Positions 4,107 to 26,183 of a DNA stretch of 64,000 bases are shown here, one piece after another. The stretch lies in IMG/VR virus record IMGVR_UViG_3300046007_013272; one strand, given 5' to 3'. Position 1 is the first letter of the stretch, and every line of letters starts with the position of its first letter. The DNA comes from an uncultured virus (IMG/VR IMGVR_UViG_3300046007_013272) (lineage: Duplodnaviria > Heunggongvirae > Uroviricota > Caudoviricetes). The notes under the pieces are model-generated. The model did no database searches. It saw nothing but the letters and a program-made list of their open reading frames with translations, and was not told the DNA's origin. The position numbers and the translations under genes were made by a program.

Positions 4107-4148
4107 TTTGATTTATTGTCTTTTTGATATTTATAACAAAAAGGCAGA

Positions 4149-6963: not shown

Positions 6964-7010
6964 AAAAAATAAAAAATATTTATTACATATATAATAATTG
7001 AAAGTATAAA

Positions 7011-10000
7011 ATGGCCAGTAACGCTAGATTTTTAGACCAAATATCAATTGGGAGTTTTCAGTCAACCGGTGGAGGAAGTGGCACAGATGGCACTTCAGGT
7101 ACTTCAGGTACTTCCGGTATAGGTGGAGCAGTTAATATTTACTACACAAGTTCATTAGTTGTATCAAATGTTGCAACATTAAACTTTACAGGTAGTGGGG
7201 TTTTTGTTGAAGCGTCTGGTTCAAATGGTGCTACTATTACAATTACTGGTACTGGTGGTGGTTCTGGTTCTTCAGGTTCTTCAGGTTCTTCAGGAACTTC
7301 AGGCACAAGTGGTACTTCAGGTACATCAGGTATAGGTTCTTCAGGTACTTCAGGTACAGATGGTTCATCTGGTACAAGTGGTACTTCAGGTATCGGTTCT
7401 TCAGGCACATCAGGTACTTCAGGTACAGATGGCACTTCAGGTACTTCAGGTGTAGGCACATCAGGTACCAGCGGCACATCTGGAACAGATGGTACTTCAG
7501 GTACATCAGGTACAGGCTCTTCAGGTACTTCAGGAACATCTGGTACAGATGGTTCTTCCGGTACTTCAGGTATCGGTTCTTCAGGCACATCAGGTACTTC
7601 AGGTACAGATGGTTCATCTGGTACTTCAGGTGTAGGTACATCAGGAACAAGTGGTACTTCAGGTACAGATGGTTCATCTGGCACTTCAGGCGTAGGCACA
7701 TCAGGTACAAGTGGTACTTCGGGTGCTGATGGTACTTCAGGTACTTCTGGTATTAATGGTACAAGTGGCACTTCTGGTACATCAGGTGAAGGAACTTCAG
7801 GAACAAGTGGTACCTCAGGTACTTCAGGCATAGGCTCTTCAGGATCATCTGGTACAAGTGGTACTTCAGGTGAAACTGGTACTAGCGGTACCTCAGGTAC
7901 TTCAGGAGCAGGTTCTGCTATTACAATTTCAGACGAAAATTTTGTCTTAACAACAAACGCTACACTAATTAACTTTACAGGATCAGGTGTAGTTGCAGAA
8001 ACTGGCAGTAATCCAGGAGAAGTTAACGTTACTATTGGTACTACAATTTATTATACGGGCTCACTCGTTGATACCAATATCGGTGCGTTCTACTTTACTG
8101 GTAGTGGTGTACAAGTTGAATCAACAGGATCAGGTACAGCAGTATTAGTAACTATTACAGGAGGCACTTCAGGAGACTCAGGATCTTCTGGTACTTCAGG
8201 CACAAGTGGTACTTCAGGTGAAACTGGTACTTCAGGTACATCAGGAGAATCAGGTACTAGTGGCACTTCAGGTACTGATGGTTCATCAGGAACTTCTGGC
8301 ACTTCTGGTATAGGTACTTCGGGTACATCAGGTACATCAGGAATTTCAGGTACATCCGGTACTTCAGGTGAGTCTGGTACTTCAGGTACCTCTGGAGAAT
8401 CTGGTACAAGTGGAACAAGTGGTGAATCTGGTACTTCAGGTACAAGTGGAATTTCAGGAACATCAGGCACATCAGGAGAATCAGGTACTAGTGGTACCTC
8501 AGGTACAGATGGTTCATCAGGAACTTCTGGGATTAATGGTACTTCGGGTACAAGTGGCACTTCAGGAGAAGCAGGTACTTCAGGTACATCAGGTATAGAT
8601 GGCACTTCTGGAACAAGTGGTTCAAGTGGAACTTCAGGTATAGGTACTTCAGGAACCTCAGGCACATCAGGATTATCAGGTGTAAATGGTACATCTGGAA
8701 CATCAGGCTCAAGTGGTGAATCCGGAACTTCAGGAACAAGTGGCACTTCAGGTACCGGTGGTACTTCTGGTACAAGTGGTACAGGTGGTACTTCAGGTAC
8801 CTCAGGTTCTTCAGGTTTAAGTGGTATAAATGGTACTTCGGGCACAAGCGGTACCTCAGGTACAGATGGTTCATCAGGAACATCAGGAACAGATGGTTCT
8901 TCAGGCACTTCTGGTACCTCTGGTACCTCTGGTACAGATGGTTCATCTGGTACAAGTGGAACAAGCGGATCTTCAGGTTTAAGTGGTATAAATGGTACTT
9001 CTGGAACTAGTGGTACAGATGGTACTTCAGGTACATCAGGTACAGATGGTTCAAGTGGTACTTCAGGTACAGGTGGTACTTCTGGTACAAGTGGTACAGA
9101 TGGCACTTCAGGTACTAGTGGTAGTTCAGGCCTTTCAGGAATTAATGGAACCTCTGGTACAAGTGGTACAGATGGTTCTTCAGGAACATCAGGTACAGAT
9201 GGCTCATCAGGCACAAGTGGTACAAGTGGTACAAGTGGTTCATCAGGAACTTCAGGTACTGATGGCTCAAGTGGCACTTCAGGTAGTTCTGGTTTGTCTG
9301 GTATAAACGGAACAAGCGGCACATCAGGAACTTCAGGAACAGATGGTTCATCTGGTACTTCAGGTACAGATGGTAGTTCAGGTATAAGCGGAACATCAGG
9401 CACATCTGGTACAGATGGTTCATCTGGTACAAGTGGCACTTCAGGCTCTTCAGGCCTTTCAGGTATAAACGGAACAAGTGGCACTTCAGGTACTGATGGC
9501 TCAAGTGGCACTTCAGGTACAGATGGTAGTTCAGGTACATCTGGTTCATCAGGAACTAGTGGTTCTTCTGGTACATCTGGTACAGATGGTTCAAGTGGTA
9601 CATCAGGTTCATCAGGTTTAAGCGGTATTAATGGAACCTCAGGTACAAGTGGTACCTCAGGTACTGATGGCTCAAGCGGTACTTCAGGTACAGACGGTTC
9701 TTCAGGTACTTCTGGCACAAGTGGTTCATCAGGCACATCTGGTACAGATGGTTCATCTGGCACTTCAGGCTCTTCAGGCCTTTCAGGTATAAACGGAACA
9801 AGCGGTACTTCTGGTACTTCAGGAACTGATGGCTCTTCGGGTACAAGCGGTGAATCAGGTACAAGCGGTTCTTCGGGTACTTCAGGTACAGACGGATCTT
9901 CAGGTACAAGCGGAACAAGTGGAAGTTCGGGATTAAGTGGTATTAATGGTACTTCAGGTACTAGTGGTTCATCAGGTACAAGTGGTACCGATGGTTCTTC

Positions 10001-13000
10001 AGGTACTTCGGGTACAGATGGTTCTAGTGGCACTTCTGGTACTTCGGGTACAGATGGTTCTTCTGGTACCTCTGGTTCATCTGGTCTTTCAGGTATAAAT
10101 GGTACATCAGGTACTTCAGGCACTTCTGGTACAGATGGTTCATCTGGTACAAGTGGTGAATCCGGAACATCTGGCTCATCTGGTACTTCTGGTACAGATG
10201 GTTCTTCAGGCACAAGCGGAACCAGCGGATCTTCAGGTTTATCCGGTATAAACGGCACCTCAGGTACAAGTGGTTCATCAGGAACCTCAGGTGAATCCGG
10301 CACAAGTGGTACTTCAGGTACTGATGGTTCAAGCGGTACTTCAGGTACAGATGGCTCTTCAGGTACTTCAGGTACATCTGGTTCAAGTGGTTCATCAGGA
10401 ACATCTGGATCTTCAGGTTCATCAGGAACTTCAGGGACAGATGGTTCATCTGGCACCTCAGGTACAGATGGTTCTTCGGGTACAAGTGGCACTTCTGGTA
10501 CAAGTGGTACAGATGGTACTTCAGGTACTAGTGGCACATCAGGTAGCTCAGGTCTTTCAGGTATAAATGGCACTTCAGGTACAAGTGGTTCATCAGGTAC
10601 TTCAGGTACAGATGGTTCTTCAGGTACTTCAGGTACTAGTGGTAGTTCAGGTTCATCTGGTACAAGCGGCACAGATGGTTCATCAGGTACATCAGGTAGT
10701 TCAGGCTCATCAGGCACAAGTGGTAGTTCAGGCTCATCAGGTACTAGCGGTTCTTCAGGAACTTCAGGTACAGACGGATCTTCAGGAACTAGTGGCTCAA
10801 GTGGTACATCTGGTTCATCTGGTACAAGTGGTACAGATGGTTCTTCAGGTACAAGCGGAACAAGTGGTTCTTCTGGTTTATCAGGTATAAACGGAACAAG
10901 TGGTACTTCTGGAACTTCAGGTTCAAGTGGTACAGATGGTAGCTCAGGTACTTCAGGCACTAGTGGTAGCTCAGGTAGTTCAGGATCTTCAGGAACATCT
11001 GGTACAGATGGTTCTTCAGGCACTTCAGGTAGTTCTGGTTCATCTGGAACTTCGGGTTCAAGTGGCTCATCAGGAACATCAGGTTCAAGCGGTACCTCAG
11101 GTACAGATGGTTCATCAGGAACTAGTGGTACAAGTGGTAGCTCAGGTTCTTCAGGAACAAGTGGTACTTCAGGTAGCTCAGGAACAAGTGGTTCTTCTGG
11201 CTTAAGTGGTATTAATGGTACTTCAGGTACTTCAGGCACAAGCGGTACAGATGGCTCATCTGGTACTTCAGGCAGCTCAGGATCATCTGGTTCATCTGGT
11301 ACTTCAGGTACAGATGGCTCAAGTGGTACTTCAGGTAGTTCAGGCTCTAGTGGAACTTCAGGTTCTAGTGGTTCATCAGGAACTAGTGGTTCCTCAGGTA
11401 CATCTGGTACAGATGGCTCATCTGGTACTTCAGGATCTTCAGGAACATCAGGTAGCTCAGGCTCATCAGGTACTTCAGGAAGTTCAGGCACTTCAGGTAC
11501 ATCTGGATCTTCAGGTTTAAGTGGTATTAATGGTACTTCAGGTACTTCGGGTACAAGTGGTACAGATGGTTCATCTGGCACTTCAGGTAGCTCAGGTTCT
11601 TCAGGTAGCTCAGGTACTTCAGGTACAGATGGTTCATCAGGAACAAGTGGTTCTTCAGGTTCATCTGGTACATCAGGTTCATCAGGTTCATCAGGAACAA
11701 GCGGTTCATCAGGTACATCAGGTACAGACGGATCTTCAGGTACAAGTGGAACCTCAGGTAGTTCAGGCTCATCAGGTTCAAGTGGAACTAGTGGTTCTTC
11801 AGGTACTTCAGGTACTTCAGGATCATCAGGTCTTTCAGGTATAAACGGAACTTCAGGTACTTCAGGTTCATCTGGTTCATCAGGTACCTCAGGTACGGAT
11901 GGCTCTTCAGGTACTAGTGGAACATCAGGTTCTTCAGGTTCAAGCGGTAGTTCAGGTTCAAGCGGCACTTCAGGATCTTCAGGTTCTTCAGGAACAAGTG
12001 GTACAAGTGGTACTTCAGGTTCTTCAGGTTCAAGTGGTACATCTGGTACAGATGGTTCATCTGGTACAAGTGGTAGCTCGGGCTCATCAGGCAGTTCAGG
12101 TACTTCAGGTACATCTGGCTCTTCAGGAACATCAGGTTCTTCAGGTTTAAGCGGTATAAACGGAACTTCAGGTACTAGCGGTACATCAGGCAGTTCAGGT
12201 AGTTCAGGTTCATCAGGAACAAGTGGTTCATCTGGTACTTCAGGAACTAGTGGTTCAAGTGGCTCTTCAGGTTCAAGCGGAACTTCAGGTTCAAGCGGAA
12301 CATCTGGTTCAAGTGGTAGTTCAGGTTCTAGTGGCTCATCAGGAACTAGTGGTACAGATGGCTCATCTGGTACTTCAGGTTCATCAGGAACATCAGGCAG
12401 CTCAGGTTCATCAGGAACTAGCGGAACTTCAGGTTCTTCAGGAACATCTGGTTCATCAGGCCTTTCAGGTATAAATGGTACTTCAGGTACAAGTGGTACT
12501 TCCGGTTCAAGTGGTTCAAGTGGCTCTTCAGGTACATCAGGTTCAAGCGGTTCATCAGGAACTTCAGGAACTAGCGGCTCATCAGGATCTTCAGGTAGCT
12601 CAGGTTCATCAGGAACTTCTGGCTCAAGCGGTACATCAGGTACTAGTGGAAGTTCTGGTTCATCTGGTTCATCAGGAACATCAGGCACTTCAGGTTCAAG
12701 CGGAACATCAGGCACATCAGGATCATCAGGTTCATCTGGTACCTCAGGTACATCTGGATCATCAGGTTTAAGTGGTATTAATGGTACTTCTGGAACAAGT
12801 GGCTCATCTGGAACTTCAGGTTCAAGTGGCTCATCAGGTACAAGTGGTAGCTCAGGTTCTTCAGGTACTTCAGGTTCTTCAGGAACTTCTGGTTCAAGTG
12901 GCTCAAGTGGCTCTTCAGGTTCATCAGGTACTTCTGGTACTAGTGGTTCATCAGGTACTTCAGGTACAAGTGGTTCTTCTGGTTCATCAGGTTCTTCAGG

Positions 13001-14939
13001 CTCATCAGGAACAAGTGGTTCATCTGGTACTTCAGGTACAAGTGGCTCTTCAGGTTCATCTGGTTCAAGTGGTTCATCAGGAACATCAGGTTCAAGTGGT
13101 ACCTCAGGAACTAGCGGAAGCTCTGGTTCATCAGGTTCAAGCGGTAGTTCAGGTACTTCAGGCAGTTCAGGTACTTCAGGTACTAGTGGCTCTTCAGGCT
13201 CATCAGGTAGCTCAGGTTCATCTGGTACAAGTGGCTCATCAGGTTTAAGTGGTATTAACGGTACATCAGGAACTTCAGGTAGTTCAGGTTCATCTGGTTC
13301 AAGTGGTTCATCCGGTACTTCAGGTACAAGTGGTTCTTCAGGAACATCAGGCTCATCAGGCAGCTCAGGTTCTAGTGGTTCATCAGGAACTAGCGGAAGC
13401 TCAGGTTCGTCTGGTACTTCAGGATCTTCAGGCAGCTCTGGTTCTTCAGGCTCATCAGGAACATCTGGTTCTAGTGGTACTTCAGGAACTTCAGGTACTT
13501 CAGGTAGTTCAGGTTCATCAGGTTCAAGTGGAAGTTCAGGCTCATCAGGTACTTCAGGTTCAAGCGGAACATCAGGTACTAGTGGAAGTTCTGGTTCTTC
13601 AGGTAGTTCAGGCTCTTCAGGAACTAGTGGTTCATCAGGAACTTCAGGCTCTTCAGGTACAAGTGGCAGCTCAGGCTCATCTGGTTCAAGCGGAACATCT
13701 GGTTCTTCAGGTTTATCAGGTATAAACGGAACTAGTGGTACTTCAGGTTCATCAGGTTCATCAGGTAGTTCAGGTTCTTCAGGAACATCTGGCTCAAGTG
13801 GCTCATCTGGTACTTCAGGCTCATCAGGCTCATCAGGTTCATCAGGCACGTCAGGAAGTTCAGGTTCATCAGGTACTAGTGGCTCTTCTGGATCTTCAGG
13901 TAGCTCAGGCTCATCAGGCACAAGTGGTAGTTCAGGCTCTTCTGGTACATCAGGTTCAAGTGGCTCTTCAGGTAGCTCAGGCTCATCAGGAACTAGTGGT
14001 TCTTCAGGCTCCTCTGGTACTTCAGGCAGTTCAGGATCTTCTGGCAGTTCAGGCTCATCAGGTTCATCAGGAACTTCAGGTTCATCAGGAACTTCAGGTT
14101 CATCAGGTACAAGTGGCTCAAGTGGTAGCTCAGGCTCATCTGGTTCAAGCGGCTCTTCTGGAACATCTGGTTCTTCAGGTTTATCAGGTGTAAATGGCAC
14201 TTCAGGAACATCAGGTTCTTCAGGTTCATCAGGTATAGGCATTAGTGGTACATCAGGCTCTTCAGGTACAAGCGGTTCATCAGGTTCATCCGGTTCTAGT
14301 GGTACTAGCGGTTCTAGTGGCTCATCAGGTTCATCAGGTACGTCAGGCGCTGCTACTATAAACAACAATACTAACAACTACGTATTAACCGCAACTGGTA
14401 CCGCTGGTCTAATTAATGGTGAAGCTAACTTAACATTTACTGGCACAACATTAGGAGTTAACGGAGATATTAGTGTTCAAGGTGGCATTGATATGAACAA
14501 TACTGATGTTAGTAATGTTAGAAACATTACTATGGATGGTACTGGTAATATTGATGGTGCCGGAACTTCTAATATTAATAACTTTAATGAAATCAATGGT
14601 AACGTTAAAAACTTTGATATACCACACCCTTCAAAAGAAGGATGGAGACTTCGCTACTCAGTGCTTGAGGGACCAGAAACTGGTGTGTATATTAGAGGTA
14701 AAGTAGAAGGAGATGGAGTAATTACATTACCTGATTACTGGAAAGATTTAGTATACCATGATAGCCTATCAGTACAATTAACACCTATTGGAAAATCATG
14801 TACTCACTACGTATTATCAGCGTCAGTTGAACAAGTCGTGGTAGCATGTGAATGTGGAGAAGTAAACGCTTATTACGTAGTATTTGCAGAAAGAAAAGTA
14901 GATCCGAAATTAATAGTTGAATATCCCGTAAAAGGCTAA
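7011..14939 (+). CDS. Giant Gly-X-Y (Gly/Ser/Thr) repeat fibre protein, 2642 aa
   Basis: More than 2200 aa of G-[ST]-S triplets, three FTGSGV beta modules near the N-terminus, and a C-terminal KNFDIPHP...LEGPE.GVY.RG domain of the kind seen at phage fibre ends. Confidence 0.85.
8165..14348 (+). repeat. Degenerate 9-nt-period coding repeat (GGT ACT TCA / GGT TCA TCA variants)
   Basis: Continuous Gly-every-third-codon array with shuffled synonymous codons. Confidence 0.95.
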
Positions 14940-14961: not shown

Positions 14962-17900
14962 ATGGCAAAAAACGTACAGATAATACCAAAATCAGGTAGC
15001 TTAAATTTCCAAGATACTGCTGTAGGTAAAGAAATTAAATTTGATTTTGCATCAGCGGGTCAATTAACAATCAAAAGTGGTTCTGTTAACATTGCTACTA
15101 TTGATAGTGGCAGTTTAGCCATTGCTAATAATGCTACTTTTGTATTACCTGTTGTAGGATCCTCTCCTTCTTCACCAATCCCAGGACAAGTTTGGTTTAA
15201 TAGTGGTACAAATACTTTAGAAGTAGAAGGTACAGCTGGAACCATAACAGGTGGTGGTCCTCAAGGTCCAATTGGTCCTCAAGGTCCACAAGGCCCACAA
15301 GGTCCTATTGGTCCTATTGGACCACAAGGCCCTATTGGAGCACAAGGTCCCATAGGCCCTATTGGTCCTATTGGTCCTCAGGGCCCTATCGGTCCTATCG
15401 GCCCTACAGGTCCTATTGGTCCTATTGGCCCACAGGGTCCTATCGGCCCTATTGGCCCTATCGGTCCTCAAGGTCCAATTGGTCCTATCGGTCCTACAGG
15501 TCCTCAAGGCCCACAAGGCCCAATTGGCCCCATTGGTCCACAGGGTCCTATTGGTGCTCAAGGCCCAATTGGTCCTATCGGTCCTACAGGTCCTATCGGC
15601 CCACAAGGTCCAATCGGTCCTCAAGGTCCAATTGGTCCACAAGGTCCTATAGGTAACCAAGGCCCTATTGGCCCAATTGGTCCTACGGGTCCTATCGGTC
15701 CTCAAGGTCCTATTGGTCCAATTGGTCCTATCGGTCCGATTGGTCCTATCGGCCCACAAGGTCCTATTGGTCCAATTGGTCCAACTGGTCCAATTGGCCC
15801 TCAAGGTCCCATAGGTCCTATCGGCCCCATCGGTCCTATTGGTCCAATTGGTCCTCAAGGTCCCATAGGTCCAATTGGCCCAACTGGCCCTATAGGTCCA
15901 CAAGGTCCTATTGGAGCTCAAGGCCCAATTGGTCCTATAGGTCCTATCGGTCCTCAAGGTCCAATCGGTCCAATTGGCCCAACTGGTCCTATTGGCCCAC
16001 AAGGTCCTATAGGTGCACAAGGTCCTATTGGACCTAAAGGAGACAACCAAGCTCCGGGCCCTATCGGTCCTATTGGTCCGATTGGCCCCCAAGGCCCTAT
16101 TGGTCCAATTGGTCCAACTGGTCCGATCGGTCCACAAGGTCCCATAGGTCCTATAGGCCCTATTGGCCCTATTGGTCCTCAAGGTCCTCAAGGTCCTATA
16201 GGTCCTATCGGTCCTACAGGTCCAATTGGTCCTCAAGGTCCTATTGGAGCTCAAGGCCCTATTGGTCCCATTGGTCCTATTGGCCCACAGGGTCCTATTG
16301 GCCCAATTGGTCCTACTGGCCCGATTGGTCCACAAGGTCCTATTGGAGTACAAGGTCCTATTGGACCTAAAGGAGATAACCAAGCACCTGGTCCTCAAGG
16401 TCCTATTGGACCTATCGGCCCTCAAGGTCCAATTGGTCCTATCGGACCAACTGGTCCAATCGGCCCACAAGGTCCTATCGGTCCTATCGGTCCTATTGGC
16501 CCACAGGGTCCTCAAGGAAACCAAGGCCCTATCGGTCCTATTGGTCCTACAGGTCCTATAGGTCCACAAGGTCCTATTGGAGCTCAAGGCCCAATTGGTC
16601 CTATTGGTCCAATCGGCCCACAAGGTCCTATCGGTCCTATCGGTCCTACAGGTCCTATTGGCCCCCAAGGTCCAATTGGTAATATTGGTCCTATAGGTCC
16701 TATTGGTCCTATCGGACCCCAAGGCCCTATTGGCCCTATCGGTCCTACAGGTCCTATTGGTCCTCAAGGTCCAATTGGTAATATTGGTCCTATTGGCCCT
16801 ATTGGCCCAATTGGTCCTCAAGGCCCTATCGGTCCTATTGGTCCTACGGGTCCAATTGGTCCTCAAGGTCCTATTGGAGTACAAGGTCCTATTGGTCCTA
16901 AAGGAGACAACCAAGCACCTGGCCCCATTGGTCCTATCGGTCCTATTGGTCCTCAAGGTCCTATCGGCCCCATTGGTCCTACTGGACCTATTGGCCCTCA
17001 AGGTCCTATTGGTCCTATTGGTCCAATTGGTCCACAAGGTCCACAAGGTAACCAAGGTCCTATTGGTCCTATAGGACCTACTGGCCCCATTGGTCCTATT
17101 GGTCCTATTGGTCCTCAAGGTCCAATTGGTAATATTGGCCCCATTGGTCCACAAGGTCCTATTGGCCCTATTGGTCCTACAGGCCCTATTGGTCCTCAAG
17201 GTCCTATTGGTCCAATCGGTCCAATTGGTAACATTGGTCCAATTGGTCCTCAAGGTCCAATCGGTCCAATTGGCCCAACTGGTCCTATTGGCCCTCAAGG
17301 TCCTATTGGTAATATTGGTCCCATAGGTCCTATTGGTCCTATTGGTCCACAGGGTCCTATTGGTCCAATCGGTCCAACTGGTCCTATTGGCCCTCAAGGC
17401 CCTATTGGCGCTCAAGGCCCAATTGGACCTAAAGGAGATAATCAAGCTCCAGGCCCCCAAGGCCCTATTGGTCCTATCGGCCCACAGGGTCCTATCGGTC
17501 CTATTGGTCCTACAGGTCCTATTGGTGTGCAAGGTCCAATTGGTAATATCGGTCCTATAGGTCCTCAAGGTCCCCAAGGTAATATTGGCCCTATTGGCCC
17601 AATTGGTCCTACAGGCCCTATTGGTCCTCAAGGTCCAATTGGTAATATTGGTCCTATTGGCCCTATCGGACCTATTGGTGCACAAGGTCCTATTGGTCCT
17701 ATTGGCCCTACAGGTCCTATTGGCCCCCAAGGTCCAATTGGTAATATTGGCCCCATTGGACCACAAGGCCCTCAAGGTAATATTGGTCCTATTGGCCCTA
17801 TCGGTCCTACAGGCCCTATTGGTCCTCAAGGTCCTATTGGTCCTATTGGCCCAACTGGTCCTATTGGAAATATAGGCCCACAAGGTATTCAGGGTCCTAT

Positions 17901-18162
17901 TGGTCCTGTTGGTGCATCTGGTGCTCAAGGTCCTATTGGTAACATTGGACCCATTGGCCCACAAGGTCCTATTGGCCCTTCAGGTGCTACAGGCGCTATT
18001 GGTCCTATTGGTCCTATTGGTCCTCAAGGCCCCATTGGTCCTCAGGGCCCAGCAGGTAATAATGCACCAACTGGAGTTACTACAACTTTTGCTCTTAATA
18101 CTAGTGGAGGTAACCCTTCATTTAATTATGTAGCCGGAGTATTAACAGCTTATAACCCTTAA
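14962..18162 (+). CDS. Collagen-like fibre protein 1 (GPI/GPQ/GPT), 1066 aa
   Basis: About 310 Gly-X-Y triplets, broken only by four GPKGDNQAP inserts; N-terminus [14 protein letters not shown]. Confidence 0.9.
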
Positions 18163-18168
18163 TAATCT

Positions 18169-21100
18169 ATGGCTAAAAATGTTAAAATAATACCTAAATC
18201 AGGTAGCCTTGAATTTATTGAAAGTTCAAATGGTAAAGCTATAGATTTTACTTTTAATAATGTTACAGGAGATTTAGCAGTCCAAAGTGGTAGTGTTGAT
18301 ATATTTACTATTAAACCAACAGGTATTGAAATTAATAGTAATGCTGGATTTGTAGTACCTAATACAGTTCTTGTTTCTAATAGAACGGGTGCTTTACGAT
18401 TTGATGCACCTGCTGAAGCTTTAATTGTTACTAGTAAAACAGGAACACCAATTGATTTACAAGGACCACAAGGTCCTAGGGGTACACAAGGTCCTAGAGG
18501 CAATCAAGGACCGCAAGGTCCACGTGGTATTCAAGGTCCACAAGGTACTCAAGGACCACAAGGCTTACAAGGACCAAGAGGTATAATTGGTCCTATTGGA
18601 CCAGGACCACAAGGTCCACAAGGTCCACAAGGTATACAAGGTCCTATTGGCGCTCGTGGACCACAAGGAATTATAGGTCCTATTGGACCAGGACCACAAG
18701 GTCCACAAGGTCCAAGAGGTTTAATAGGACCTCAAGGTATTCAAGGTCCTACAGGTATTATAGGCCCTATTGGACCAGGACCACAAGGCCCACAAGGTAT
18801 TCAAGGTCCTCGTGGTTTAATAGGTCCATGGGGTCCTATTGGACCTATTGGAATTCAAGGCCCCATTGGACCTGGACCACAAGGCCCACAAGGCATACAA
18901 GGCCCACAAGGTACTCAGGGACCTATTGGTCCTAGAGGTCCACAAGGTATTATTGGTCCTATAGGCCCTGGACCTCAAGGTCCACAAGGTATTCAAGGTC
19001 CTATTGGCAATATAGGCCCAATTGGTCCTAGAGGACCTTTAGGCATTCAGGGTCCAATCGGTCCTGGACCTCAAGGCCCACAGGGCATTCAGGGTCCACA
19101 AGGTATTCAAGGGCCTATTGGTCCTAGAGGACCTCAAGGTATTATCGGTCCTATTGGTCCAGGTCCACAAGGCCCGCAAGGTACCCAAGGACCTACAGGC
19201 ATACAAGGTCCTAAAGGTATCCCAGGTGATACTGGTGATCTTCAAGGCCCTATTGGCCCTCGTGGTCCTCAAGGTATTATAGGTCCTATTGGTCCGGGTC
19301 CACAAGGCCCGCGAGGTATTCAAGGTCCTATTGGTAACATTGGTCCTATTGGTCCTAGAGGTCCTTTAGGTATCCAAGGCCCAATTGGTCCAGGCCCACA
19401 AGGGCCTCAGGGTATTCAAGGCCCGCAAGGTACACAAGGTCCTATTGGTCCTCGGGGACCTCAGGGTATTATTGGTCCTATAGGTCCCGGACCTCAAGGT
19501 CCACAAGGCATTCAAGGCCCCACAGGTATTATAGGTCCTAAAGGTATTGCTGGAGATGTAACTGATGCTATAGGTCCTCGTGGTCCTATTGGTCCTCAAG
19601 GTATTATTGGTCCTATAGGCCCGGGCCCACAAGGTCCTCAAGGTACTATAGGCCCTATTGGCCCACGAGGTCCTTGGGGTCCTATTGGACCTATTGGAAT
19701 TCAAGGTCCAATTGGCCCAGGTCCACAAGGACCTCAGGGTATTCAAGGCCCTCAAGGAATACAAGGTCCTCGGGGTAATATTGGTCCTCAAGGTATTATC
19801 GGCCCTATTGGCCCAGGCCCACAAGGTCCACAGGGCATTCAAGGTCCTATTGGTAACATTGGTCCTATTGGCCCTAGAGGACCTCAGGGTATTATAGGTC
19901 CTATAGGTCCTGGCCCACAAGGTCCACAGGGCATTCAAGGCCCTATTGGTAACATTGGTCCTATTGGCCCTAGAGGACCTCAGGGTATTATAGGTCCTAT
20001 AGGTCCTGGCCCACAAGGTCCACAGGGCATTCAAGGCCCTATTGGTAACATTGGTCCTATTGGCCCTAGAGGACCTCAGGGTATTATAGGTCCTATAGGT
20101 CCTGGCCCACAAGGTCCACAAGGCATTCAAGGCCCCACAGGTATTATAGGTCCTAAAGGTATTCCGGGTGATATAAATGATATTCAAGGTCCTATTGGTC
20201 CTCGTGGTCCTCAAGGTATAATAGGCCCTATAGGTCCTGGTCCTCAAGGCCCTCAGGGTATTATAGGCCCTATTGGTCCGCGAGGTCCTTGGGGTCCTAT
20301 TGGACCTACTGGCATTATTGGTCCTATTGGACCAGGCCCACAAGGACCTATTGGACCTCGTGGTCCTCAAGGTATTCAGGGTCCAATTGGAAATATAGGT
20401 CCACAAGGTACTATTGGTAATATTGGACCTGGTCCTATTGGTCCACGGGGTATAATAGGCCCAATTGGCCCTATTGGTAACATTGGTCCTCGTGGTCCTC
20501 AAGGTATTATCGGCCCTATAGGTCCTGGACCTCAAGGTCCACAAGGTATTCAAGGCCCTATTGGTAACATTGGTCCTATTGGTCCTAGAGGACCCCAAGG
20601 TATTATAGGTCCTATTGGACCTGGTCCTCAAGGCCCACAAGGTATTCAAGGCCCTACAGGCATTCAAGGTCCTAAAGGCATTGCAGGAGATGTAACTGAT
20701 ATTGTAGGCCCTAGAGGTCCTATTGGTCCTCAAGGTATTATTGGTCCTATAGGCCCGGGCCCACAAGGTCCACAAGGCATACAAGGTCCTATTGGTCCTC
20801 GTGGTCCATGGGGTCCAATTGGTCCTATTGGTAATATTGGTCCAATTGGTCCTGGCCCACAAGGTCCACAGGGCATTCAAGGCCCTATTGGTAACATTGG
20901 TCCTAGAGGTCCTATTGGACCTACTGGCATTATTGGTCCTATAGGCCCGGGCCCACAAGGTCCACAAGGCATACAAGGTCCTATTGGTCCTCGTGGTCCA
21001 TGGGGTCCAATTGGTCCTATTGGTAATATTGGCCCAATTGGCGTTGCACCCCAAGGTCCTAGAGGTATAATTGGTCCTATTGGTCCGGGCCCACAAGGTC

Positions 21101-21627
21101 CTATAGGACCTATAGGAGTACAAGGCCCTCGGGGCAATAGAGGCCCAGCTAGTACTATTCAAGGCCCTCAAGGTCCTATTGGTAATATTGGTCCTCGTGG
21201 TCCTATTGGTGCTGTTGGTTCTAGTCCTCAAGGTCCTAGAGGTCCTATCGGCCCTCGTGGTCCTATTGGTTCTAGAGGTCTTATTGGGGCTGAAGGTACT
21301 GGACCTATAGGTTTAACTGTAAATTTTAAATTATTTACAGTAAATTTTTCACAAACATTAGATTTTGCCGATGGTTATCTTCAATACAGAAAAACATCAG
21401 ATATTAGATTAAAAGAAAATATTGTAAAAATAGGTGTATCTAAATTAGGTATTAATATTTACGAGTATAATTACATTAATGATCCTAATACTAGATATAT
21501 TGGTGTAATGGCTCAAGAATTATTAGGAACACAATTTGAAGACGCTGTGGTAATAGCTGAAAATGGTTATTATGCTGTAGACTATAGCAAAATTGATGTT
21601 AAATTTGAAAAACTAGAATTAGTTTAA
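18169..21627 (+). CDS. Collagen-like fibre protein 2 with C-terminal peptidase S74-like intramolecular chaperone, 1152 aa
   Basis: [12 protein letters not shown] triplets with periodic G-P-G interruptions. N-terminus is paralogous to collagen 1. SDIRLKENI...GVMAQE...VDYSKI tail. Confidence 0.9.
19816..20103 (+). repeat. Three near-identical 96-nt tandem copies inside collagen 2
   Basis: Units start at 19816, 19912 and 20008; I could see only one synonymous mismatch. Confidence 0.85.
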
Positions 21628-21647: not shown

Positions 21648-21675
21648 TAAGGGGGACTTTGAATGTCCCCCTTTT
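21648..21675 (+). terminator. Intrinsic terminator after the fibre genes, overlapping promoter-like elements of the next operon
   Basis: AAGGGGGAC-TTTGAAT-GTCCCCCTT then TT; TATTTATA follows at 21677. Confidence 0.75.
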
Positions 21676-21698
21676 ATATTTATATTATATATAGGTTT

Positions 21699-24050
21699 AT
21701 GAAAATAGTTTTATACACAGGTTATCACAAAACTCCTTGGGGTCCTTCTTCTATAGAAACTACCGGTTTAGGAGGTACAGAAAAAACCACTTATTATTTA
21801 GCACAAGAATTAGCCAAACTCCCTGAATATTATATTTGGGTAGTTGGAAATGTTATTCCTGGAGATTTTGATAATGTAAAATATAGAACTACTAAACAAT
21901 TTAAACAAGAAGAATCTTCAGTTGATACTATTATTGGAATAAATTATATACATTATTTAAAAGAATTTGAAGATTTTAATTATAAAAATTCTATATTTTG
22001 GCTTAGTAATACCGATTATTATAATTGGTGGAATGGAGAAGAAATACCTAATCATAGAGAATTATTAATCCATCCTAAACTTAAATATATTATATGCTTA
22101 ACTAAATGGCATAGAGAAATTTGGCTCCAACAATACCCAGAAACCGAAAGTAAAATTAAAATTATTGGTTATGGTATTGATGCTAGCAAAATTATAAAAA
22201 CTTTTCCTGAACCCCAAGCAATAAAAGGTTTAATCTTCCCAAAACCAACTTCTCAATTATATCAAAAAAATAAAAATCAATATATCTATTCATCTCATGC
22301 TGAAAGAGGTTTAGCTAGAGTATTAGAAGATTGGCCTCAAATTAAACAAGAAGCCCCTGATTCTAGCTTAAAAATTTGTACTCCTGAATATGGTTTAGAA
22401 TATTATAATCAATATTATAAAGAATGGGTAGATAGTTTGGATGATGTAGAATTTTTAGGTACATTACCCGAAAAAGAATTATATAAATTAATGGCGGATA
22501 GTCAATATTGGTACTATCCTTCAACATATGAAGAAACATTTTGCTTAACAGCTTTAGAAATGTTAGGCCATCAAGTATTACCTATTACTTGGGAATGGGG
22601 TGGTTTAAAAGAAACATTACATGGTTTTAATGCTCTTAATGAAAATGACAATATAAATTGGCAATTAGCACAAAATTACGTATATTCACTTGACTGGTGG
22701 TATGTAACAATAAGAAACTGGATACCTTTATTATTAAAATTAAATATGAATTTAGATCATTTTTACGTTATAGCTTTAAATGAAACTCAGCAAATTAAAG
22801 ATAAATGCGATAAATTATCTATGCCTGGTTTTTATAACTACTGGGTAAAAACTGGTTTTGATTATCGCACTTTAACACAAAAAGATTTAGTAAAATTTGG
22901 TGTTAAAAAACACCCAAATTGGAAAATCGAAAGTAGTTGTCATTGGTGGAATCGCGAAGTAACAGATGGAGAAGTAGGATGTGCCTTAGCTCATATTGAT
23001 GCTTGGGTTGATGCTTATGAATATGATAGAGAAATAACTTTTATTCTAGAAGAAGATTTTAAAGAACAACTCCCAGTAAACTGGGAAAATATAAAATCTC
23101 TTTTAGATAAAGGATATGATATGATTTATTTAGGACGTAATGCTCTTAAACCTGATTTAGAAAAACCTATAGAAGGATTTAGAAATTGGGTAGAGCCTGA
23201 TTATTCATATAACTCACACGCCTACATTTTATCACGTTCAGGTGTTCAAAAGCTAGTAGAAGAGTGGATCCCTCGTTATAAAAGTAAAATATTTGCTTTA
23301 GATGAGTTTTTATCAATTACTTTTGGTATGACTCATCGTCAAGATATTTTAGCAGATTTTGCTGATCTACCTAAATTAAAAGTAGCTGCTCCAAAAGTTA
23401 ATTATTTTGAACAAGATAAAAGTGTAGGAGTAACTGAAGGTAATAAACCTATAATTGAAATTTTAGATGATAGTAACTGGGAAGAGTGGTGTAAAAAATA
23501 TATTGATCCTTATATTTTAAAAGGACAATATAAGCTTATGACTGATGAAATTGGTCCTAATATTATTGAATTCCCATTATTTACTGAAAAATTCTGTGAT
23601 GAAGTAATAGCTTTAGCTGAACAAAATGAATGGAAAACTGATAGACATACTTTTTATCCTACAACAGACCAAACTATGGAAAGTTTAAAGATGCAAAAAA
23701 TCTATCAAAAAGTTCTAGAACAATTTGTTTATCCTATTTGGATTTGGTTTTGGGAACTTGAAGGTAATAATTGGCAAACTTCAAAAAGTGAAAACTTTAT
23801 TGCTAAATATGATACAAATAATCAAGGTAGCTTAGATATTCACCACGATAGCTCAGCTATTACATTAAATGTTAGGTTAAATGATGAATTTAAAGGAGGT
23901 GGTACTTTTATCCCTCGCTATAAATTAACAATCCAACCTCAAAGAAAAGGATATGCTATGGCTCATCCTGGTCAAATTACTCACAAACACGGGGGACGTC
24001 CTGTAATCGAAGGAACCCGATATATTTTAATTTCTTTTACAAATCCTTAA
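21699..24050 (+). CDS. Three-domain enzyme: GT-B (GT4-like) glycosyltransferase + GT25 (COLGALT-like) + PLOD-like 2OG-Fe(II) lysyl hydroxylase
   Basis: GLGGTE, YSS..ERGL and ETFCLTALE (GT-B); GEVGCALAH, LEED, DMIYLGR, VEPDYSY..HAYILS..G..KL and DEFL (GT25); FPLFTEKFCDE, YPTTD, HHDSS.ITLNV.LN, GGGT, HPGQITH.H.G.P...GTRYI.ISF..P (PLOD C-terminal domain). Start moved to ATG 21699. Confidence 0.85.
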   Translation: MKIVLYTGYHKTPWGPSSIETTGLGGTEKTTYYLAQELAKLPEYYIWVVGNVIPGDFDNVKYRTTKQFKQEESSVDTIIGINYIHYLKEFEDFNYKNSIFWLSNTDYYNWWNGEEIPNHRELLIHPKLKYIICLTKWHREIWLQQYPETESKIKIIGYGIDASKIIKTFPEPQAIKGLIFPKPTSQLYQKNKNQYIYSSHAERGLARVLEDWPQIKQEAPDSSLKICTPEYGLEYYNQYYKEWVDSLDDVEFLGTLPEKELYKLMADSQYWYYPSTYEETFCLTALEMLGHQVLPITWEWGGLKETLHGFNALNENDNINWQLAQNYVYSLDWWYVTIRNWIPLLLKLNMNLDHFYVIALNETQQIKDKCDKLSMPGFYNYWVKTGFDYRTLTQKDLVKFGVKKHPNWKIESSCHWWNREVTDGEVGCALAHIDAWVDAYEYDREITFILEEDFKEQLPVNWENIKSLLDKGYDMIYLGRNALKPDLEKPIEGFRNWVEPDYSYNSHAYILSRSGVQKLVEEWIPRYKSKIFALDEFLSITFGMTHRQDILADFADLPKLKVAAPKVNYFEQDKSVGVTEGNKPIIEILDDSNWEEWCKKYIDPYILKGQYKLMTDEIGPNIIEFPLFTEKFCDEVIALAEQNEWKTDRHTFYPTTDQTMESLKMQKIYQKVLEQFVYPIWIWFWELEGNNWQTSKSENFIAKYDTNNQGSLDIHHDSSAITLNVRLNDEFKGGGTFIPRYKLTIQPQRKGYAMAHPGQITHKHGGRPVIEGTRYILISFTNP

Positions 24051-24061: not shown

Positions 24062-24673
24062 ATGATGAATGTTAATTATACATTCCCTTTAGAAAATCCC
24101 GTAAACCAATGTAATTATTATTGGTTTCAAGAAGGTTTTACTACTGATGAGTTATCTCAAATTGAATCTCAAGTAGCCGAAATGCAATTCCAAACAGCTG
24201 TTACTGAGCAAGGTGGACAAGATCAAGGTGAAAATTTAGATGCTCGCAATTCCAGTATTAAATGGATTCCATTTTCAGAAAATACAAAATGGATTTACGA
24301 TAAAATTGGTTTAATGGCATATGAAGCTAATAAAGAAATGTATCATTTTGATCTAAACTTTATGCCAGAACAAATTCAATATACTGAATACTATGGTACT
24401 AATAAAGGTCACTATGATTGGCATATGGATATAGGTAGCCAAGGATTTATGCCTTTTAGAAAACTCTCAGTTACAGTTCAACTTTCTGGCCCTGAAGAAT
24501 ATGAAGGGGGTAATTTAGAAATTTGGAATGGTGGGCAAATGCCTTTAACAGGTCCTAAAGGTAAGGGTACTGTTATTATTTTCCCATCATTTATGCTTCA
24601 TAGAGTTACACCTGTAATTAAAGGTACTCGTAAATCATTTGTTCTTTGGTTAGGAGGAGGTCATTATAGATAA
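24062..24673 (+). CDS. 2OG-Fe(II) oxygenase (prolyl-4-hydroxylase/PKHD-like)
   Basis: YDWHMD, RKLS, YEGG, FPSF.LH.VTPV..G.R.S.V.W: HxD...H triad plus RxS. Confidence 0.9.
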   Translation: MMNVNYTFPLENPVNQCNYYWFQEGFTTDELSQIESQVAEMQFQTAVTEQGGQDQGENLDARNSSIKWIPFSENTKWIYDKIGLMAYEANKEMYHFDLNFMPEQIQYTEYYGTNKGHYDWHMDIGSQGFMPFRKLSVTVQLSGPEEYEGGNLEIWNGGQMPLTGPKGKGTVIIFPSFMLHRVTPVIKGTRKSFVLWLGGGHYR

Positions 24674-25437
24674 TGAAAGTAGCAATTTGTATAAGCGGTT
24701 TACCCCGCAATTATGATTTAGGTTTTAAAGAACTAAAAAAATGGTTCTTAAACAAGTATGATTGTGATGTTTACATCCATACTTGGTATGATACTACATC
24801 AGTCTTTGAAACTGGACATGATTTTTTAGAAAAAAAAACATACACTTTTACACAAAGTGATTATGATAAAATTTTAAAATTATATAAACCTAAAGCATAC
24901 GAATTTCAAACACCTATACCGTTTGATGAAACCGATATTCGCGGATCTCATTTAAATTATAAATTACATAATATTTTAAGTGCTGCTTATTCAATTCATG
25001 CTTGTTATAATTTAGTACGTGAATCCGGTATTGAATATGATTATATTATTAGATATAGATTTGATCTTCAATTTACTAAGTATGTATCTCCTAAATGTAT
25101 CTTTCTAAAAGACATTACTCAATTAGATCCTAACAAATATAATTGCTTTAAATACCCAGATATTAATGGATTCCCTCAACGAACATCTGAAATTGATGAT
25201 CAATTTATAGTTAGTGGACCTCATATTGCTGAAATTTATTCTGATTATTTTTGTTATATACTTAACTACATTTTTATAGACCCAGATTATGGTGAATGGT
25301 TAAAAACTGTCACAAGTACAGCGGATAAAACTGTTGCTGAAAGTCTTTTAAAATGGCATGTAATGCTAAAAAATAATGTAGAGGTAAATTATGTTGAAAG
25401 TTTAACCAAACATTTTCATGCCCATATTATTCGATGA
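24673..25437 (+). CDS. Putative glycosyltransferase-like protein, paralog A
   Basis: MKVAICISGLPR, DVYIHTW, YDYIIRYRFDL and DDQF motifs; located within the GT cassette. Confidence 0.5.
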   Translation: MKVAICISGLPRNYDLGFKELKKWFLNKYDCDVYIHTWYDTTSVFETGHDFLEKKTYTFTQSDYDKILKLYKPKAYEFQTPIPFDETDIRGSHLNYKLHNILSAAYSIHACYNLVRESGIEYDYIIRYRFDLQFTKYVSPKCIFLKDITQLDPNKYNCFKYPDINGFPQRTSEIDDQFIVSGPHIAEIYSDYFCYILNYIFIDPDYGEWLKTVTSTADKTVAESLLKWHVMLKNNVEVNYVESLTKHFHAHIIR

Positions 25438-26183
25438 AAATAGCTTTAACAATTAGTGGTCAGCCACGTAGATACAAACATGGTTTTAAAGAACTAAAAC
25501 GTTGGTTTTTAGATCGATATGATATTGATGTGTATATGCATGCTTGGGTTGATAAACATTTTTACAAGTATGATTTTTTTAATGAAGGTAAATTGCAACG
25601 TGTTTATAATGTTGATCAAAATACTTACAAAAATCTATTAGATTGGTATCAGCCTAAAAAACATTTATTTGAAAAAGCAATAAAGTTTGATGCTACAGAT
25701 TTAAAAGGACAAAATAACCAACGCTTAAATTCCCAAATGGGAATGTGGTTATCTTTAAAACGATCTTGGGATTTGTTAGAAAATTCCGGTATTAAATATG
25801 ATTTGGTAATAAAAACAAGATATGATTTACTTTGGACACATAGAGTAGCTGAAAATTGTATCTTCTTAGAAGACATTACTAAAGTAAACCCTGAAGCAGT
25901 TAATTTTTTTGAATATCCTGATAGATGGGGTATGGCTGATCAACTTAATGATACTTTTGCTGTTGGGGGATATGATGTTATGAAAACCTACCATAATGTC
26001 TTTCCTGAAATGTTACGAACAATCTTTGTAAACCCTGAATATTACCAGTACTATTATGATATGTTTGTTAATGAAACTTTACTCAGACAGCATTTAAGAA
26101 ATCACGGAGTTCCAATTTGTCCTATTTATCATGGTTTTGATGGATATAGAGGACTAGATGGGGGTTGTTCAATAATGAGATAA
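25434..26183 (+). CDS. Putative glycosyltransferase-like protein, paralog B
   Basis: MKIALTISGQPR, DVYMHAW, YDLVIKTRYDL and NDTFA; clearly similar to the upstream gene. Confidence 0.5.
   Translation: MKIALTISGQPRRYKHGFKELKRWFLDRYDIDVYMHAWVDKHFYKYDFFNEGKLQRVYNVDQNTYKNLLDWYQPKKHLFEKAIKFDATDLKGQNNQRLNSQMGMWLSLKRSWDLLENSGIKYDLVIKTRYDLLWTHRVAENCIFLEDITKVNPEAVNFFEYPDRWGMADQLNDTFAVGGYDVMKTYHNVFPEMLRTIFVNPEYYQYYYDMFVNETLLRQHLRNHGVPICPIYHGFDGYRGLDGGCSIMR

What the first reader, a model, noticed from the sequence alone, without database searches (positions are those of the whole stretch)
16030..20680. The only helical lysines are four G-P-K-G sites per collagen, nearly in register and each followed by a helix break
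Seen: collagen 1 has Lys at aa 359, 470, 647 and 824 (spacing 111, 177, 177), each as GPKGDNQAP. Collagen 2 has Lys at aa 349, 458, 663 and 836 (spacing 109, 205, 173), each as GPKGI[PA]GD followed by an acidic interruption. Known: PLOD enzymes hydroxylate Lys in X-Lys-Gly (Y position). Inference: these are dedicated hydroxylation/glycosylation or hinge/cross-link sites for the adjacent PLOD/GT25 enzyme.
Basis: partly seen in the sequence, partly recalled or inferred. Interest (0 to 1): 0.8.

Follow-up and report, generated by a model that had tools for sequence, protein, structure and literature searches.

The report
Sparse lysine nodes on phage collagen fibres
Two very long collagen-like fibre proteins of an uncultured T4-like bacteriophage each keep just four lysines in their helix, each beside a break in it, and these lysines are the only places where the phage's own collagen lysine-hydroxylating and sugar-adding enzyme could act.

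Summary
Collagen 1 (14962-18162) has helical Lys only at aa 359/470/647/824, each in GPKGDNQAP. Collagen 2 (18169-21627) has them only at 349/458/663/836, each in GPKGI[PA]GD plus an acidic break.

The window is a T4-like myophage. The next gene fuses a retaining GT4-fold domain, a COLGALT1-like GT25 domain and a lysyl hydroxylase domain like PLOD3/mimivirus L230. Its iron and 2-oxoglutarate residues are invariant in 19 homologues.

Beside relatives of this enzyme, 47 of 48 proline-type collagen genes carry helical Lys (878 in Y, 33 in X). A broader phage set gives 47 of 63 loci with upstream collagens, all 47 with Y-Lys.

Number, spacing and breaks are not conserved. Relatives carry 1-69 Lys per chain, and the nearest ones have the same Lys modules without a break.

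Arg shows the same Y bias, so position alone proves little. However, Lys is avoided in this helix: K/R is 4/37, against 2.1 in the phage's other proteins.

No cross-linking enzyme was found. Nothing is shown biochemically. The scan has noted this phage enzyme-collagen system before on other DNA; four literature searches found no paper on it.

The parts
14962..18162 (+). Collagen-like fibre protein 1 (1066 aa). It has an N-terminal ~98-aa conserved domain, a 936-residue Gly-X-Y region (mostly GPI/GPQ/GPT, no Arg, no Glu) and a ~32-aa C-terminal cap.
   Evidence: N-terminal domain conserved in 21 aligned fibre proteins
16030..16056 (+). Collagen 1 Lys module 1, GPKGDNQAP (Lys359), with a Gly-less triplet (QAP).
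16363..16389 (+). Collagen 1 Lys module 2, GPKGDNQAP (Lys470).
16894..16920 (+). Collagen 1 Lys module 3, GPKGDNQAP (Lys647).
17425..17451 (+). Collagen 1 Lys module 4, GPKGDNQAP (Lys824).
18169..21627 (+). Collagen-like fibre protein 2 (1152 aa). It has a paralogous N-terminal domain (42% identical to that of collagen 1), a 944-residue Gly-X-Y region with 25 G-P-G breaks and 37 Arg, and a C-terminal Peptidase_S74 intramolecular chaperone domain.
   Evidence: (PF13884, 32.2 bits, cut-off 22)
19207..19245 (+). Collagen 2 Lys module 1, [13 protein letters not shown] (Lys349).
19534..19572 (+). Collagen 2 Lys module 2, [13 protein letters not shown] (Lys458).
20149..20187 (+). Collagen 2 Lys module 3, [13 protein letters not shown] (Lys663).
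20668..20706 (+). Collagen 2 Lys module 4, [13 protein letters not shown] (Lys836).
21663..24050 (+). Three-domain enzyme. The ORF starts at 21663; the likely true start is Met13 at 21699, as in the 783-aa homologues. Domains: retaining GT4-fold GT-B (to about aa 360), GT25 COLGALT1-like (about aa 365-590), PLOD/L230-like lysyl hydroxylase (about aa 600-795).
24062..24673 (+). Second 2OG-Fe(II) oxygenase (203 aa, PKHD/prolyl-hydroxylase-like). Its homologue was found just after the enzyme in all 11 of 11 N-terminal-domain loci where the enzyme was detected.

Best explanation
The window is part of an uncultured T4-like myophage. Collagens 1 and 2 are paralogous fibre proteins about 270 nm long; that length is calculated from 936 and 944 helical residues at the textbook rise of about 0.29 nm per residue.

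The eight GPKG lysines are the only X-Lys-Gly acceptor sites in these fibres for the enzyme encoded next to them. The inferred sequence of events is as follows. The C-terminal domain hydroxylates these Lys to 5-hydroxylysine on unfolded chains. The GT25 domain then adds a first sugar, by analogy galactose. The retaining GT4 domain may add a second, alpha-linked sugar.

In this lineage Lys has been almost purged from the helix. Basic Y positions are Arg in collagen 2 and uncharged in collagen 1. Modification would therefore be confined to four nodes per chain, or twelve per trimer.

Each node sits in a short conserved module that, in this lineage only, has also lost the Gly phase. That would make the node a local soft spot or kink.

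Shown: the sequence anatomy, the enzyme homology with intact catalytic residues, and the co-occurrence of enzyme and Lys-bearing collagens. Inferred: that the Lys are modified, which sugars are added, that the breaks act as hinges, and that the matched heights in the two fibres matter.
For: Lys positions and modules.

Enzyme:
- The lysyl hydroxylase (LH) domain matches human LH3 (E 1e-26) and mimivirus L230 (E 1e-25), while prolyl hydroxylases score only E 0.014.
- H727, D729, H776, Y716 and R786 are invariant in 19 homologues. They align to the residues that the L230 paper names as the Fe triad and 2OG binders (H825, D827, H877, Y814, R887; passages read; alignment).
- The GT25 domain matches COLGALT1 at E 1e-13, with E463 and D465 invariant opposite COLGALT1's EDD.
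- The N-terminal domain model (block-mean pLDDT above 80 over most of aa 12-360, dipping to 60-67 near aa 181-200) matches retaining GT4 enzymes, best TM 0.70 to an alpha-1,2-glucosyltransferase.

Co-occurrence:
- The gene order collagens, enzyme, oxygenase is kept in related loci.
- 47 of 48 distinct proline-type collagen ORFs next to enzyme homologues have helical Lys: 878 in Y, 33 in X, 32 at breaks.
- Of 79 further phage loci found with stand-alone LH homologues, 63 held at least 6 kb upstream. Of those, 47 have a collagen ORF, and all 47 have Y-Lys (2163 Y, 62 X and 181 other in 52 distinct ORFs). Many of these contigs are near-identical, and some are the same clade.

Lys is specifically avoided:
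- K/R is 2.10 in 45 non-collagen ORFs but 4/37 in the collagen 2 helix, and 17 of the 37 Arg codons are AGA, one step from AAA.
- Related fibres swap the two residues (69 K with 0 R in one, 13 K with 61 R in another).

The module is under constraint: the four GPKGDNQAP copies differ only by synonymous changes, at about 80-87% DNA identity.
Against: There is no biochemical evidence of any kind.

The Y position alone is weak evidence. Arg shows the same bias (638 Y against 8 X). In collagen 1, 272 of the 303 X positions are Pro, so any other residue falls in Y almost by default.

The number, spacing and breaks are not conserved, so 'dedicated four-site design' may be over-reading a repeat history.

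16 of 63 phage LH loci and 0 of 13 bacterial-genome LH loci show a collagen within the 10 kb held, so LH-like domains also have other contexts.

One related fibre has mostly X-position Lys (10 X, 2 Y).

The AlphaFold model of the LH domain was poor (pLDDT below 50 for aa 706-795, from only 19 sequences) and adds nothing.

Confidence: 0.55

Rival explanations
1. The modules are structural elements only. A Y-position Lys and a following Asp form a charge pair that clamps the chains beside a deliberate interruption, acting as a hinge or a register mark in an otherwise degenerate repeat. Hydroxylation is absent or incidental.
For: In collagen 1 the 4 Lys and 4 Asp are the only charged residues of the 936-residue helix, and they always occur as K-G-D directly before its only four breaks. 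K-G-D/E pairs stabilising triple helices is recalled knowledge, not tested here. The nearest relatives also keep GPKGD.
Against: In collagen 2 the Asp lies 5 and 8 residues after the Lys, not in the K-G-D arrangement. Across relatives the residue after K-G is N, P, F, I, T, V, A and others, as well as D or E. Arg, which collagen 2 uses 37 times, would serve a charge pair equally well, yet Lys is kept at exactly these sites. Hydroxylysine keeps its amine, so this rival and the main reading can both be true.
Confidence: 0.2
2. The four-site pattern, its spacing and the match between the two fibres are by-products of block duplication in unstable repeat arrays. Any Lys may be modified, but number and position carry no function.
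For: The modules lie in higher-order repeats. Both genes show an A-B-A-B alternation of module variants. One 32-residue unit differs between the window and three contigs whose enzyme is 100% identical. Relatives with an 82% identical enzyme have 2-7 Lys at other positions, and more distant ones have 1-69.
Against: The arrays change quickly, yet the two paralogues (N-terminal domains only 42% identical) have their four modules within 10-20 residues of each other over about 940 residues. Both paralogues acquired a break right after the Lys, where the orthologous modules of the nearest relatives have none. The module residues show only synonymous differences.
Confidence: 0.15
3. The enzyme's hydroxylase domain acts on something other than these fibres, such as another virion or host protein, and the Lys are ordinary residues.
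For: 16 of 63 phage loci and all 13 bacterial loci with LH-like domains have no collagen within the 10 kb held. A 34.6-kb contig (20% complete) has a fibre with 15 Y-Lys but no LH match.
Against: The closest solved relatives are collagen lysyl hydroxylases only. The fusion with a COLGALT1-type domain points to hydroxylysine as the sugar acceptor. The tight same-strand linkage to Lys-bearing collagens holds in this clade and in three other enzyme architectures: stand-alone LH of 211 aa, fusions of 560-606 aa, and three-domain enzymes of 777-795 aa.
Confidence: 0.1

Closest known systems
Mimivirus L230 (collagen lysyl hydroxylase plus hydroxylysine glucosyltransferase) with the mimivirus collagen-like proteins
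   Same: A virus-encoded LH domain homologous to the one here (E 1e-25), with the same Fe and 2OG residues, fused to a glycosyltransferase. The virus also encodes collagen-like proteins. The Luther 2011 paper was seen only as a citation. Passages of the 2018 L230 structure paper were read.
   Different: The host virus here is a tailed bacteriophage, not a giant virus of amoebae. The partner domains are GT4 plus GT25 instead of the PLOD-type GT-A domain. The putative substrates are encoded immediately upstream. In this lineage they offer only four acceptor Lys per chain of about 1000 residues.
Animal LH3 (PLOD3) with COLGALT1 (GLT25D1), the collagen hydroxylysine glycosylation machinery
   Same: The LH domain (E 1e-26) and the GT25 catalytic domain (E 1e-13) are homologous to those here. 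The acceptor motif X-Lys-Gly is the same (established knowledge).
   Different: In animals these are two proteins that form a complex (PDB 8zgc title); here they are one polypeptide. The second sugar transferase here would be a GT-B retaining enzyme, not the LH3 GT-A domain. There is no ER, and no Y-position hydroxyproline context: Pro sits in X in these fibres.
Collagen stalks of C1q, mannose-binding lectin and adiponectin (recalled, not tested here)
   Same: A few conserved Y-position Lys that are hydroxylated and glycosylated, together with a kink-forming interruption of Gly-X-Y.
   Different: Those are short animal stalks of fewer than 100 residues. Here the fibres have about 940 helical residues and belong to a phage. 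The resemblance is an analogy from memory only.
Phage and bacterial collagen-like fibre proteins (collagen-like tail fibres, PHROG families; Peptidase_S74 chaperone-tipped fibres)
   Same: Gly-X-Y fibre with a C-terminal self-cleaving trimerisation chaperone. The only collagen-like ORF scanned against PHROGs, the small one at 825-1640, hits tail-fibre families.
   Different: The reviews read describe prokaryotic collagens as mostly unmodified and phage collagen stretches as very short. Here the helices are over 900 residues long and are linked to a dedicated lysine-modifying enzyme.

Membership tests
Collagen lysyl hydroxylase (PLOD / L230 type), C-terminal domain of the 21663-24050 product | Sequence homology to the LH domain rather than to prolyl hydroxylases | tested here: met
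   LH3 E 1e-26 and L230 E 1e-25; the best prolyl hydroxylase scores E 0.014.
Collagen lysyl hydroxylase (PLOD / L230 type), C-terminal domain of the 21663-24050 product | 2-His-1-carboxylate Fe(II) triad and 2OG-binding Tyr/Arg | tested here: met
   H727, D729, H776, Y716 and R786 are invariant in 19 homologues. They align with the HHD, the His and the RY of L230 and LH3. The residue roles come from PMC5802723.
Collagen lysyl hydroxylase (PLOD / L230 type), C-terminal domain of the 21663-24050 product | Hydroxylates Lys in X-Lys-Gly of collagenous peptides | not testable with these tools
   Needs an enzyme assay or mass spectrometry.
GT25 collagen galactosyltransferase (COLGALT1 type), middle domain | Homology to the catalytic GT25 domain | tested here: met
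   PF01755 scores 30.1 bits against a cut-off of 24. COLGALT1 chains match at E 1e-13 over aa 398-557.
GT25 collagen galactosyltransferase (COLGALT1 type), middle domain | Acidic DxD-like metal/UDP-sugar motif | tested here: met
   E463 and D465 are invariant and align to the EDD of COLGALT1. That this motif is the catalytic one is recalled, not tested.
GT25 collagen galactosyltransferase (COLGALT1 type), middle domain | Transfers galactose to hydroxylysine | not testable with these tools
   Donor and acceptor cannot be read from the sequence.
Collagen triple-helix protein (collagens 1 and 2) | Long uninterrupted Gly-X-Y repeat | tested here: met
   936 and 944 residues, with 4 and 32 interruptions respectively.
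Collagen triple-helix protein (collagens 1 and 2) | Forms a trimeric triple helix | not testable with these tools
   Supported only indirectly, by the Peptidase_S74 trimerisation chaperone on collagen 2.
Lysyl-hydroxylase acceptor site | Lys in the Y position, followed by Gly, within a collagenous sequence | tested here: met
   All 8 helical Lys are G-P-K-G.
Hydroxylysine-derived cross-link system | A lysyl oxidase or similar enzyme encoded with the collagens | tested here: not met
   No such Pfam family appeared among the 54 translated stretches of the window that were scanned. A host enzyme cannot be excluded.

The most novel reading that the evidence does not exclude
Tailed phages tune the density of hydroxylysine-linked glycans on their collagen fibres by swapping Lys and Arg at Y positions, from about 8 sites per 100 residues down to 0.4. 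In this lineage the process has gone to an extreme. Two paralogous 270-nm fibres each keep four acceptor Lys, and each Lys is coupled to a newly evolved helix interruption. The sites lie at matched heights, giving four glycosylated flexible nodes along the fibre. This would be a phage counterpart of the kink-plus-glycosylated-hydroxylysine design of animal defence-collagen stalks.
Probability: 0.2. Interest if true: 0.75.

Novelty: new variant of a known kind. Interest (0 to 1): 0.55.

Why it matters
Collagen lysine hydroxylation and glycosylation is documented for animals and for mimivirus. Here the full enzyme set, fused into one protein, sits in a bacteriophage beside its likely substrates, and the family is common in aquatic metagenomes (234 homologues at E <= 1e-10).

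This window is the sparsest case seen among the collagens compared. It has eight defined sites, which makes it a clean system for testing site specificity by mass spectrometry and K-to-R exchange. It could also show what a glycan on a phage fibre is for. Finally, it offers short, natural acceptor modules for engineering site-specific modification of recombinant bacterial collagens.

Tried and rejected
- The whole genome of the window is not held, so host and genome size are unknown. The nearest cultured relative by DNA is Flavobacterium phage immuto (66.5% over the sheath region). It has ordinary tail-fibre genes in the equivalent region and no enzyme.
- A tblastn search of the enzyme against 50,697 phage records gave only partial matches (at most 24% of the query, 15 records).
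- I looked for fibres with the same N-terminal domain but no enzyme, as a negative control. The 11 loci that carried the enzyme (L067-L070, L072-L075, L077-L079) gave no contrast. The other five were inconclusive: L071 and L076 end before the enzyme would appear; L080 and L081 have Lys-free Thr/Gln-type collagens and no enzyme, which is consistent with the reading but they match only 18 residues of the N-terminal domain; and L082 has 15 Y-Lys and no LH match, but the record is only 20% complete.
- A heterotrimer of collagens 1 and 2 was considered as an explanation for the register and rejected. Collagen 2 has 25 G-P-G phase shifts that collagen 1 lacks.
- The AlphaFold model of the whole enzyme was informative for the two GT domains only.
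- The N-terminal domain has no sequence match among solved structures; only the fold search placed it.
- I checked whether Lys register between the two fibres is general. It is not in L005, L026, L047 or L051. It is weakly suggested in L010, where 120/180/279 in one fibre compare with 116/174/270 in the other.
- Literature searches found no paper describing a lysyl hydroxylase of a tailed phage. Subscription journals are not covered.

Full report
**Observation.** Collagen 1 (14962-18162, 1066 aa) has Lys at 359, 470, 647 and 824, each in GPKGDNQAP. Collagen 2 (18169-21627, 1152 aa) has Lys at 349, 458, 663 and 836, each in GPKGI[PA]GD followed by an acidic stretch that breaks the Gly phase. 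No other Lys lies in the Gly-X-Y regions (aa 99-1034 and 99-1042). The remaining 5 and 14 Lys are in the terminal non-collagen parts.

In collagen 1 the four GDNQAPG stretches are the only interruptions in 936 residues. Collagen 2 has 32 interruptions. Twenty-five are G-P-G, four follow the Lys, and three lie near the C end.

The offsets between the two proteins are -10, -12, +16 and +12 residues. Three contigs with a 100% identical enzyme carry a collagen 2 with one 32-residue unit fewer, which gives spacing of 109, 173, 173.

**Context.** All 83 ORFs of 90 aa or more that look real lie on the + strand, and GC is about 30-35% outside the collagen genes. The window encodes a Gp23-type capsid protein fragment, PhoH, tail sheath, tail tube, baseplate proteins, a lysozyme-tipped protein, gp32, a UvsX-like protein, a DnaB-like helicase, ribonucleotide reductase, thymidylate synthase and queuosine-pathway genes. 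It is therefore part of a T4-like myophage. The nearest cultured relative by DNA is Flavobacterium phage immuto, at 66.5% identity over the sheath region. No whole genome is held.

The gene order in the region is as follows:
- a 2642-aa Gly-[Ser/Thr]-[Ser/Thr] protein with no helical Lys (7011-14939);
- collagen 1;
- collagen 2;
- the three-domain enzyme (21663-24050);
- a second 2OG oxygenase;
- two paralogous proteins of unknown function;
- a GT4+GT9 protein;
- the tail sheath.

Collagens 1 and 2 share a conserved N-terminal domain of about 98 aa (42% identity). Collagen 2 ends in a Peptidase_S74 self-cleaving chaperone domain. At the textbook rise per residue, the helices would be about 270 nm long.

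**The enzyme.** The C-terminal 190 residues match the lysyl hydroxylase domains of human LH3 (E 1e-26) and mimivirus L230 (E 1e-25). Prolyl hydroxylases score only E 0.014. In an alignment of 19 homologues (47-83% identical), H727, D729, H776, Y716 and R786 are invariant. They align with the L230 residues that its structure paper names as the Fe triad and the 2-oxoglutarate binders (passages read; alignment).

Residues 398-557 match the catalytic GT25 domain of COLGALT1 (E 1e-13), with E463 and D465 invariant opposite its EDD.

The N-terminal third has no sequence match among solved structures. Its AlphaFold model has block-mean pLDDT above 80 over most of aa 12-360, dipping to 60-67 near aa 181-200, and superposes on retaining GT4 enzymes. 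The best target-normalised TM is 0.70, to an alpha-1,2-glucosyltransferase. The LH part of the model was poor and was not used.

The likely true start is Met13 (21699), as in the 783-aa homologues and in the Atlas record.

**Does the enzyme go with Lys-bearing collagens?** The enzyme family is large: 234 proteins at E <= 1e-10, on contigs up to 178 kb. I fetched 8 viral and 57 metagenomic loci.

Together with the window they hold 63 collagen-like ORFs, of which 53 are distinct. Forty-eight are proline-type and 5 are Ser/Thr-type; many are cut by contig ends. Forty-seven of the 48 proline-type ORFs have helical Lys. The exception is a 235-residue edge fragment. None of the 5 Ser/Thr-type ORFs has any. 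Lys falls 878 times in Y, 33 in X and 32 at breaks.

A second, wider set was fetched with an alignment of stand-alone LH homologues. Of 79 viral loci, 63 held at least 6 kb upstream. Of those, 47 had a collagen ORF on the same strand, and all 47 carried Y-Lys (2163 Y, 62 X and 181 other in 52 distinct ORFs). This held in loci where the LH is a 211-aa protein, a 560-606-aa fusion or a 777-795-aa three-domain enzyme. Many of these contigs are near-identical, and some are the same clade as before, so the independent sample is much smaller than 47.

Sixteen of the 63 viral loci, and all 13 bacterial-genome loci, show no collagen within the 10 kb held.

The ESM Atlas likewise lists LH-like domains in tailed phages in several architectures.

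**Limits of the positional argument.** Arg is even more Y-biased (638 Y, 8 X). In collagen 1, 272 of the 303 X positions are Pro. 'Lys in Y' is therefore nearly forced here and is not diagnostic on its own. One related fibre has mostly X-Lys (10 X, 2 Y).

A better argument is that Lys is specifically avoided. The phage's 45 other ORFs have K/R = 2.10, whereas the collagen 2 helix has 4 Lys and 37 Arg, and 17 of those Arg use AGA, one step from AAA. Related fibres range from 69 Lys with no Arg to 13 Lys with 61 Arg. Lys density runs from 0.2 to 8.4 per 100 helical residues, and the window sits at 0.42-0.43, near the low end of that range. This fits Lys being the 'special' residue whose number is tuned, but that is inference.

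**What is and is not conserved about the sites.** The four copies per gene are copies of one module within higher-order repeats (TRF periods 99 and 333 nt; flanks 75-89% identical). In collagen 1 they differ only by synonymous changes.

Both genes show an A-B-A-B alternation of module variants. Relatives whose enzyme is 82% identical have orthologous modules without a break: GPKGDTGSQGP against [11 protein letters not shown], which is the same length with one Gly replaced, and GPKGxSGDTG against [13 protein letters not shown]. They carry 2-4 and 6-7 Lys at other positions.

The Lys modules are therefore older than the breaks. The break arose in this lineage in both paralogues, and the count and spacing are lineage-specific. 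The match in height between the two fibres stands out because the arrays are otherwise unstable, but it rests on one lineage and I could not test it further. A heterotrimer is unlikely, because collagen 2 has 25 phase shifts that collagen 1 lacks.

**Mechanism.** My best-supported reading has confidence 0.55. The eight Lys are the acceptor sites of the co-encoded hydroxylase. The GT25 domain then glycosylates the hydroxylysine, and the retaining GT4 domain may extend the glycan.

The derived interruption next to each site probably makes a flexible node, based on general knowledge of collagen interruptions. Cross-linking is unsupported: no lysyl-oxidase-like family appeared among the 54 translated stretches scanned against Pfam.

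The rivals are a purely structural K-D clamp or hinge (0.2), a by-product of repeat history (0.15), and another substrate for the enzyme (0.1).

**Comparison and novelty.** The closest known systems are mimivirus L230 with its collagens and the animal LH3/COLGALT1 pair. The resemblance to the kinked, glycosylated stalks of C1q, MBL and adiponectin is recalled only.

Four full-text searches found no paper on a lysyl hydroxylase of a tailed phage. A review I consulted describes phage collagen stretches as very short and prokaryotic collagens as mostly unmodified (passages). A 2010 comparative-genomics paper predicted hydroxylation of bacterial collagen-like proteins, but by other dioxygenase families (passages). 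Subscription journals are not covered by these searches.

This scan has already noted the same enzyme-collagen system on other genomes. One of those notes argued against the lysine route in its own locus; I did not check it.

What this window adds is the sparsest set of putative acceptor sites among complete fibres, the coupling of those sites to breaks, and the Lys/Arg contrast.

Noticed in passing
window 7011-14939: A 2642-aa protein made almost wholly of Gly-[Ser/Thr]-[Ser/Thr] triplets, with no Lys, Arg or Pro in about 2400 helical residues. Its C-terminal domain matches phrog_17490. The same type precedes the Lys-bearing collagens in 5 related loci, and up to 3324 aa in L071 and L076. It may be a substrate for the other glycosyltransferases of the cassette.
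   Followed up: partly
window 18060-18162; L014:2-1783: Collagen 1 ends at ...LTAYNP, exactly where a Peptidase_S74 chaperone would be cleaved off. In L014 the orthologous fibre continues with SDIRLKEN... and a full S74 domain, whereas in the window that domain sits on collagen 2. The chaperone seems to have moved between the paralogues.
   Followed up: partly
window 19600-20150 versus L001:6600-9962: Collagen 2 of the window has three consecutive copies of a 32-residue unit where three contigs with a 100% identical enzyme have two. This is either strain variation or an assembly difference in the repeat.
   Followed up: partly
window 16048-16056 and copies; 19222-19224 and 20164-20166: The only Pro-Gly contexts of collagen 1 (the four QAPG) and the only two Y-position Pro of collagen 2 (GIPGD after Lys349 and Lys663) lie inside the Lys modules. 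They are possible targets of the neighbouring prolyl-hydroxylase-like oxygenase (24062-24673).
   Followed up: no
window 24673-26183 and 26185-28467: Two paralogous proteins of about 250 aa (phrog_13607, weak DUF7796 match) and a 760-aa GT4+GT9 fusion lie between the oxygenase and the tail sheath, and related loci hold ORFs of matching size and order. Together they look like a larger fibre-glycosylation cassette.
   Followed up: partly
window 54347-54748: A 133-aa SET-domain protein (PF00856, E 7e-13), a possible lysine methyltransferase, is encoded by the phage.
   Followed up: no
L084 (Aquimarina sp. RZ0 scaffold) and protein P0139 (Aquimarina algiphila): Stand-alone homologues of the hydroxylase domain (62% and 45% identical) occur in Flavobacteriaceae genomes with no collagen gene within the 10 kb held. 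This may be a hint at the host group or at a prophage.
   Followed up: partly
L114-L127, about 1467-7025: In another phage lineage (contigs of 38-179 kb) a 1853-aa collagen with about 120 Y-Lys lies 3 kb upstream of a stand-alone 211-aa hydroxylase. This is the Lys-rich opposite of the window.
   Followed up: partly
window 825-1640: A small (271 aa) tail-fibre-like protein with a Gly-Thr-Ser collagen stretch and no helical Lys sits just after the capsid gene fragment.
   Followed up: no
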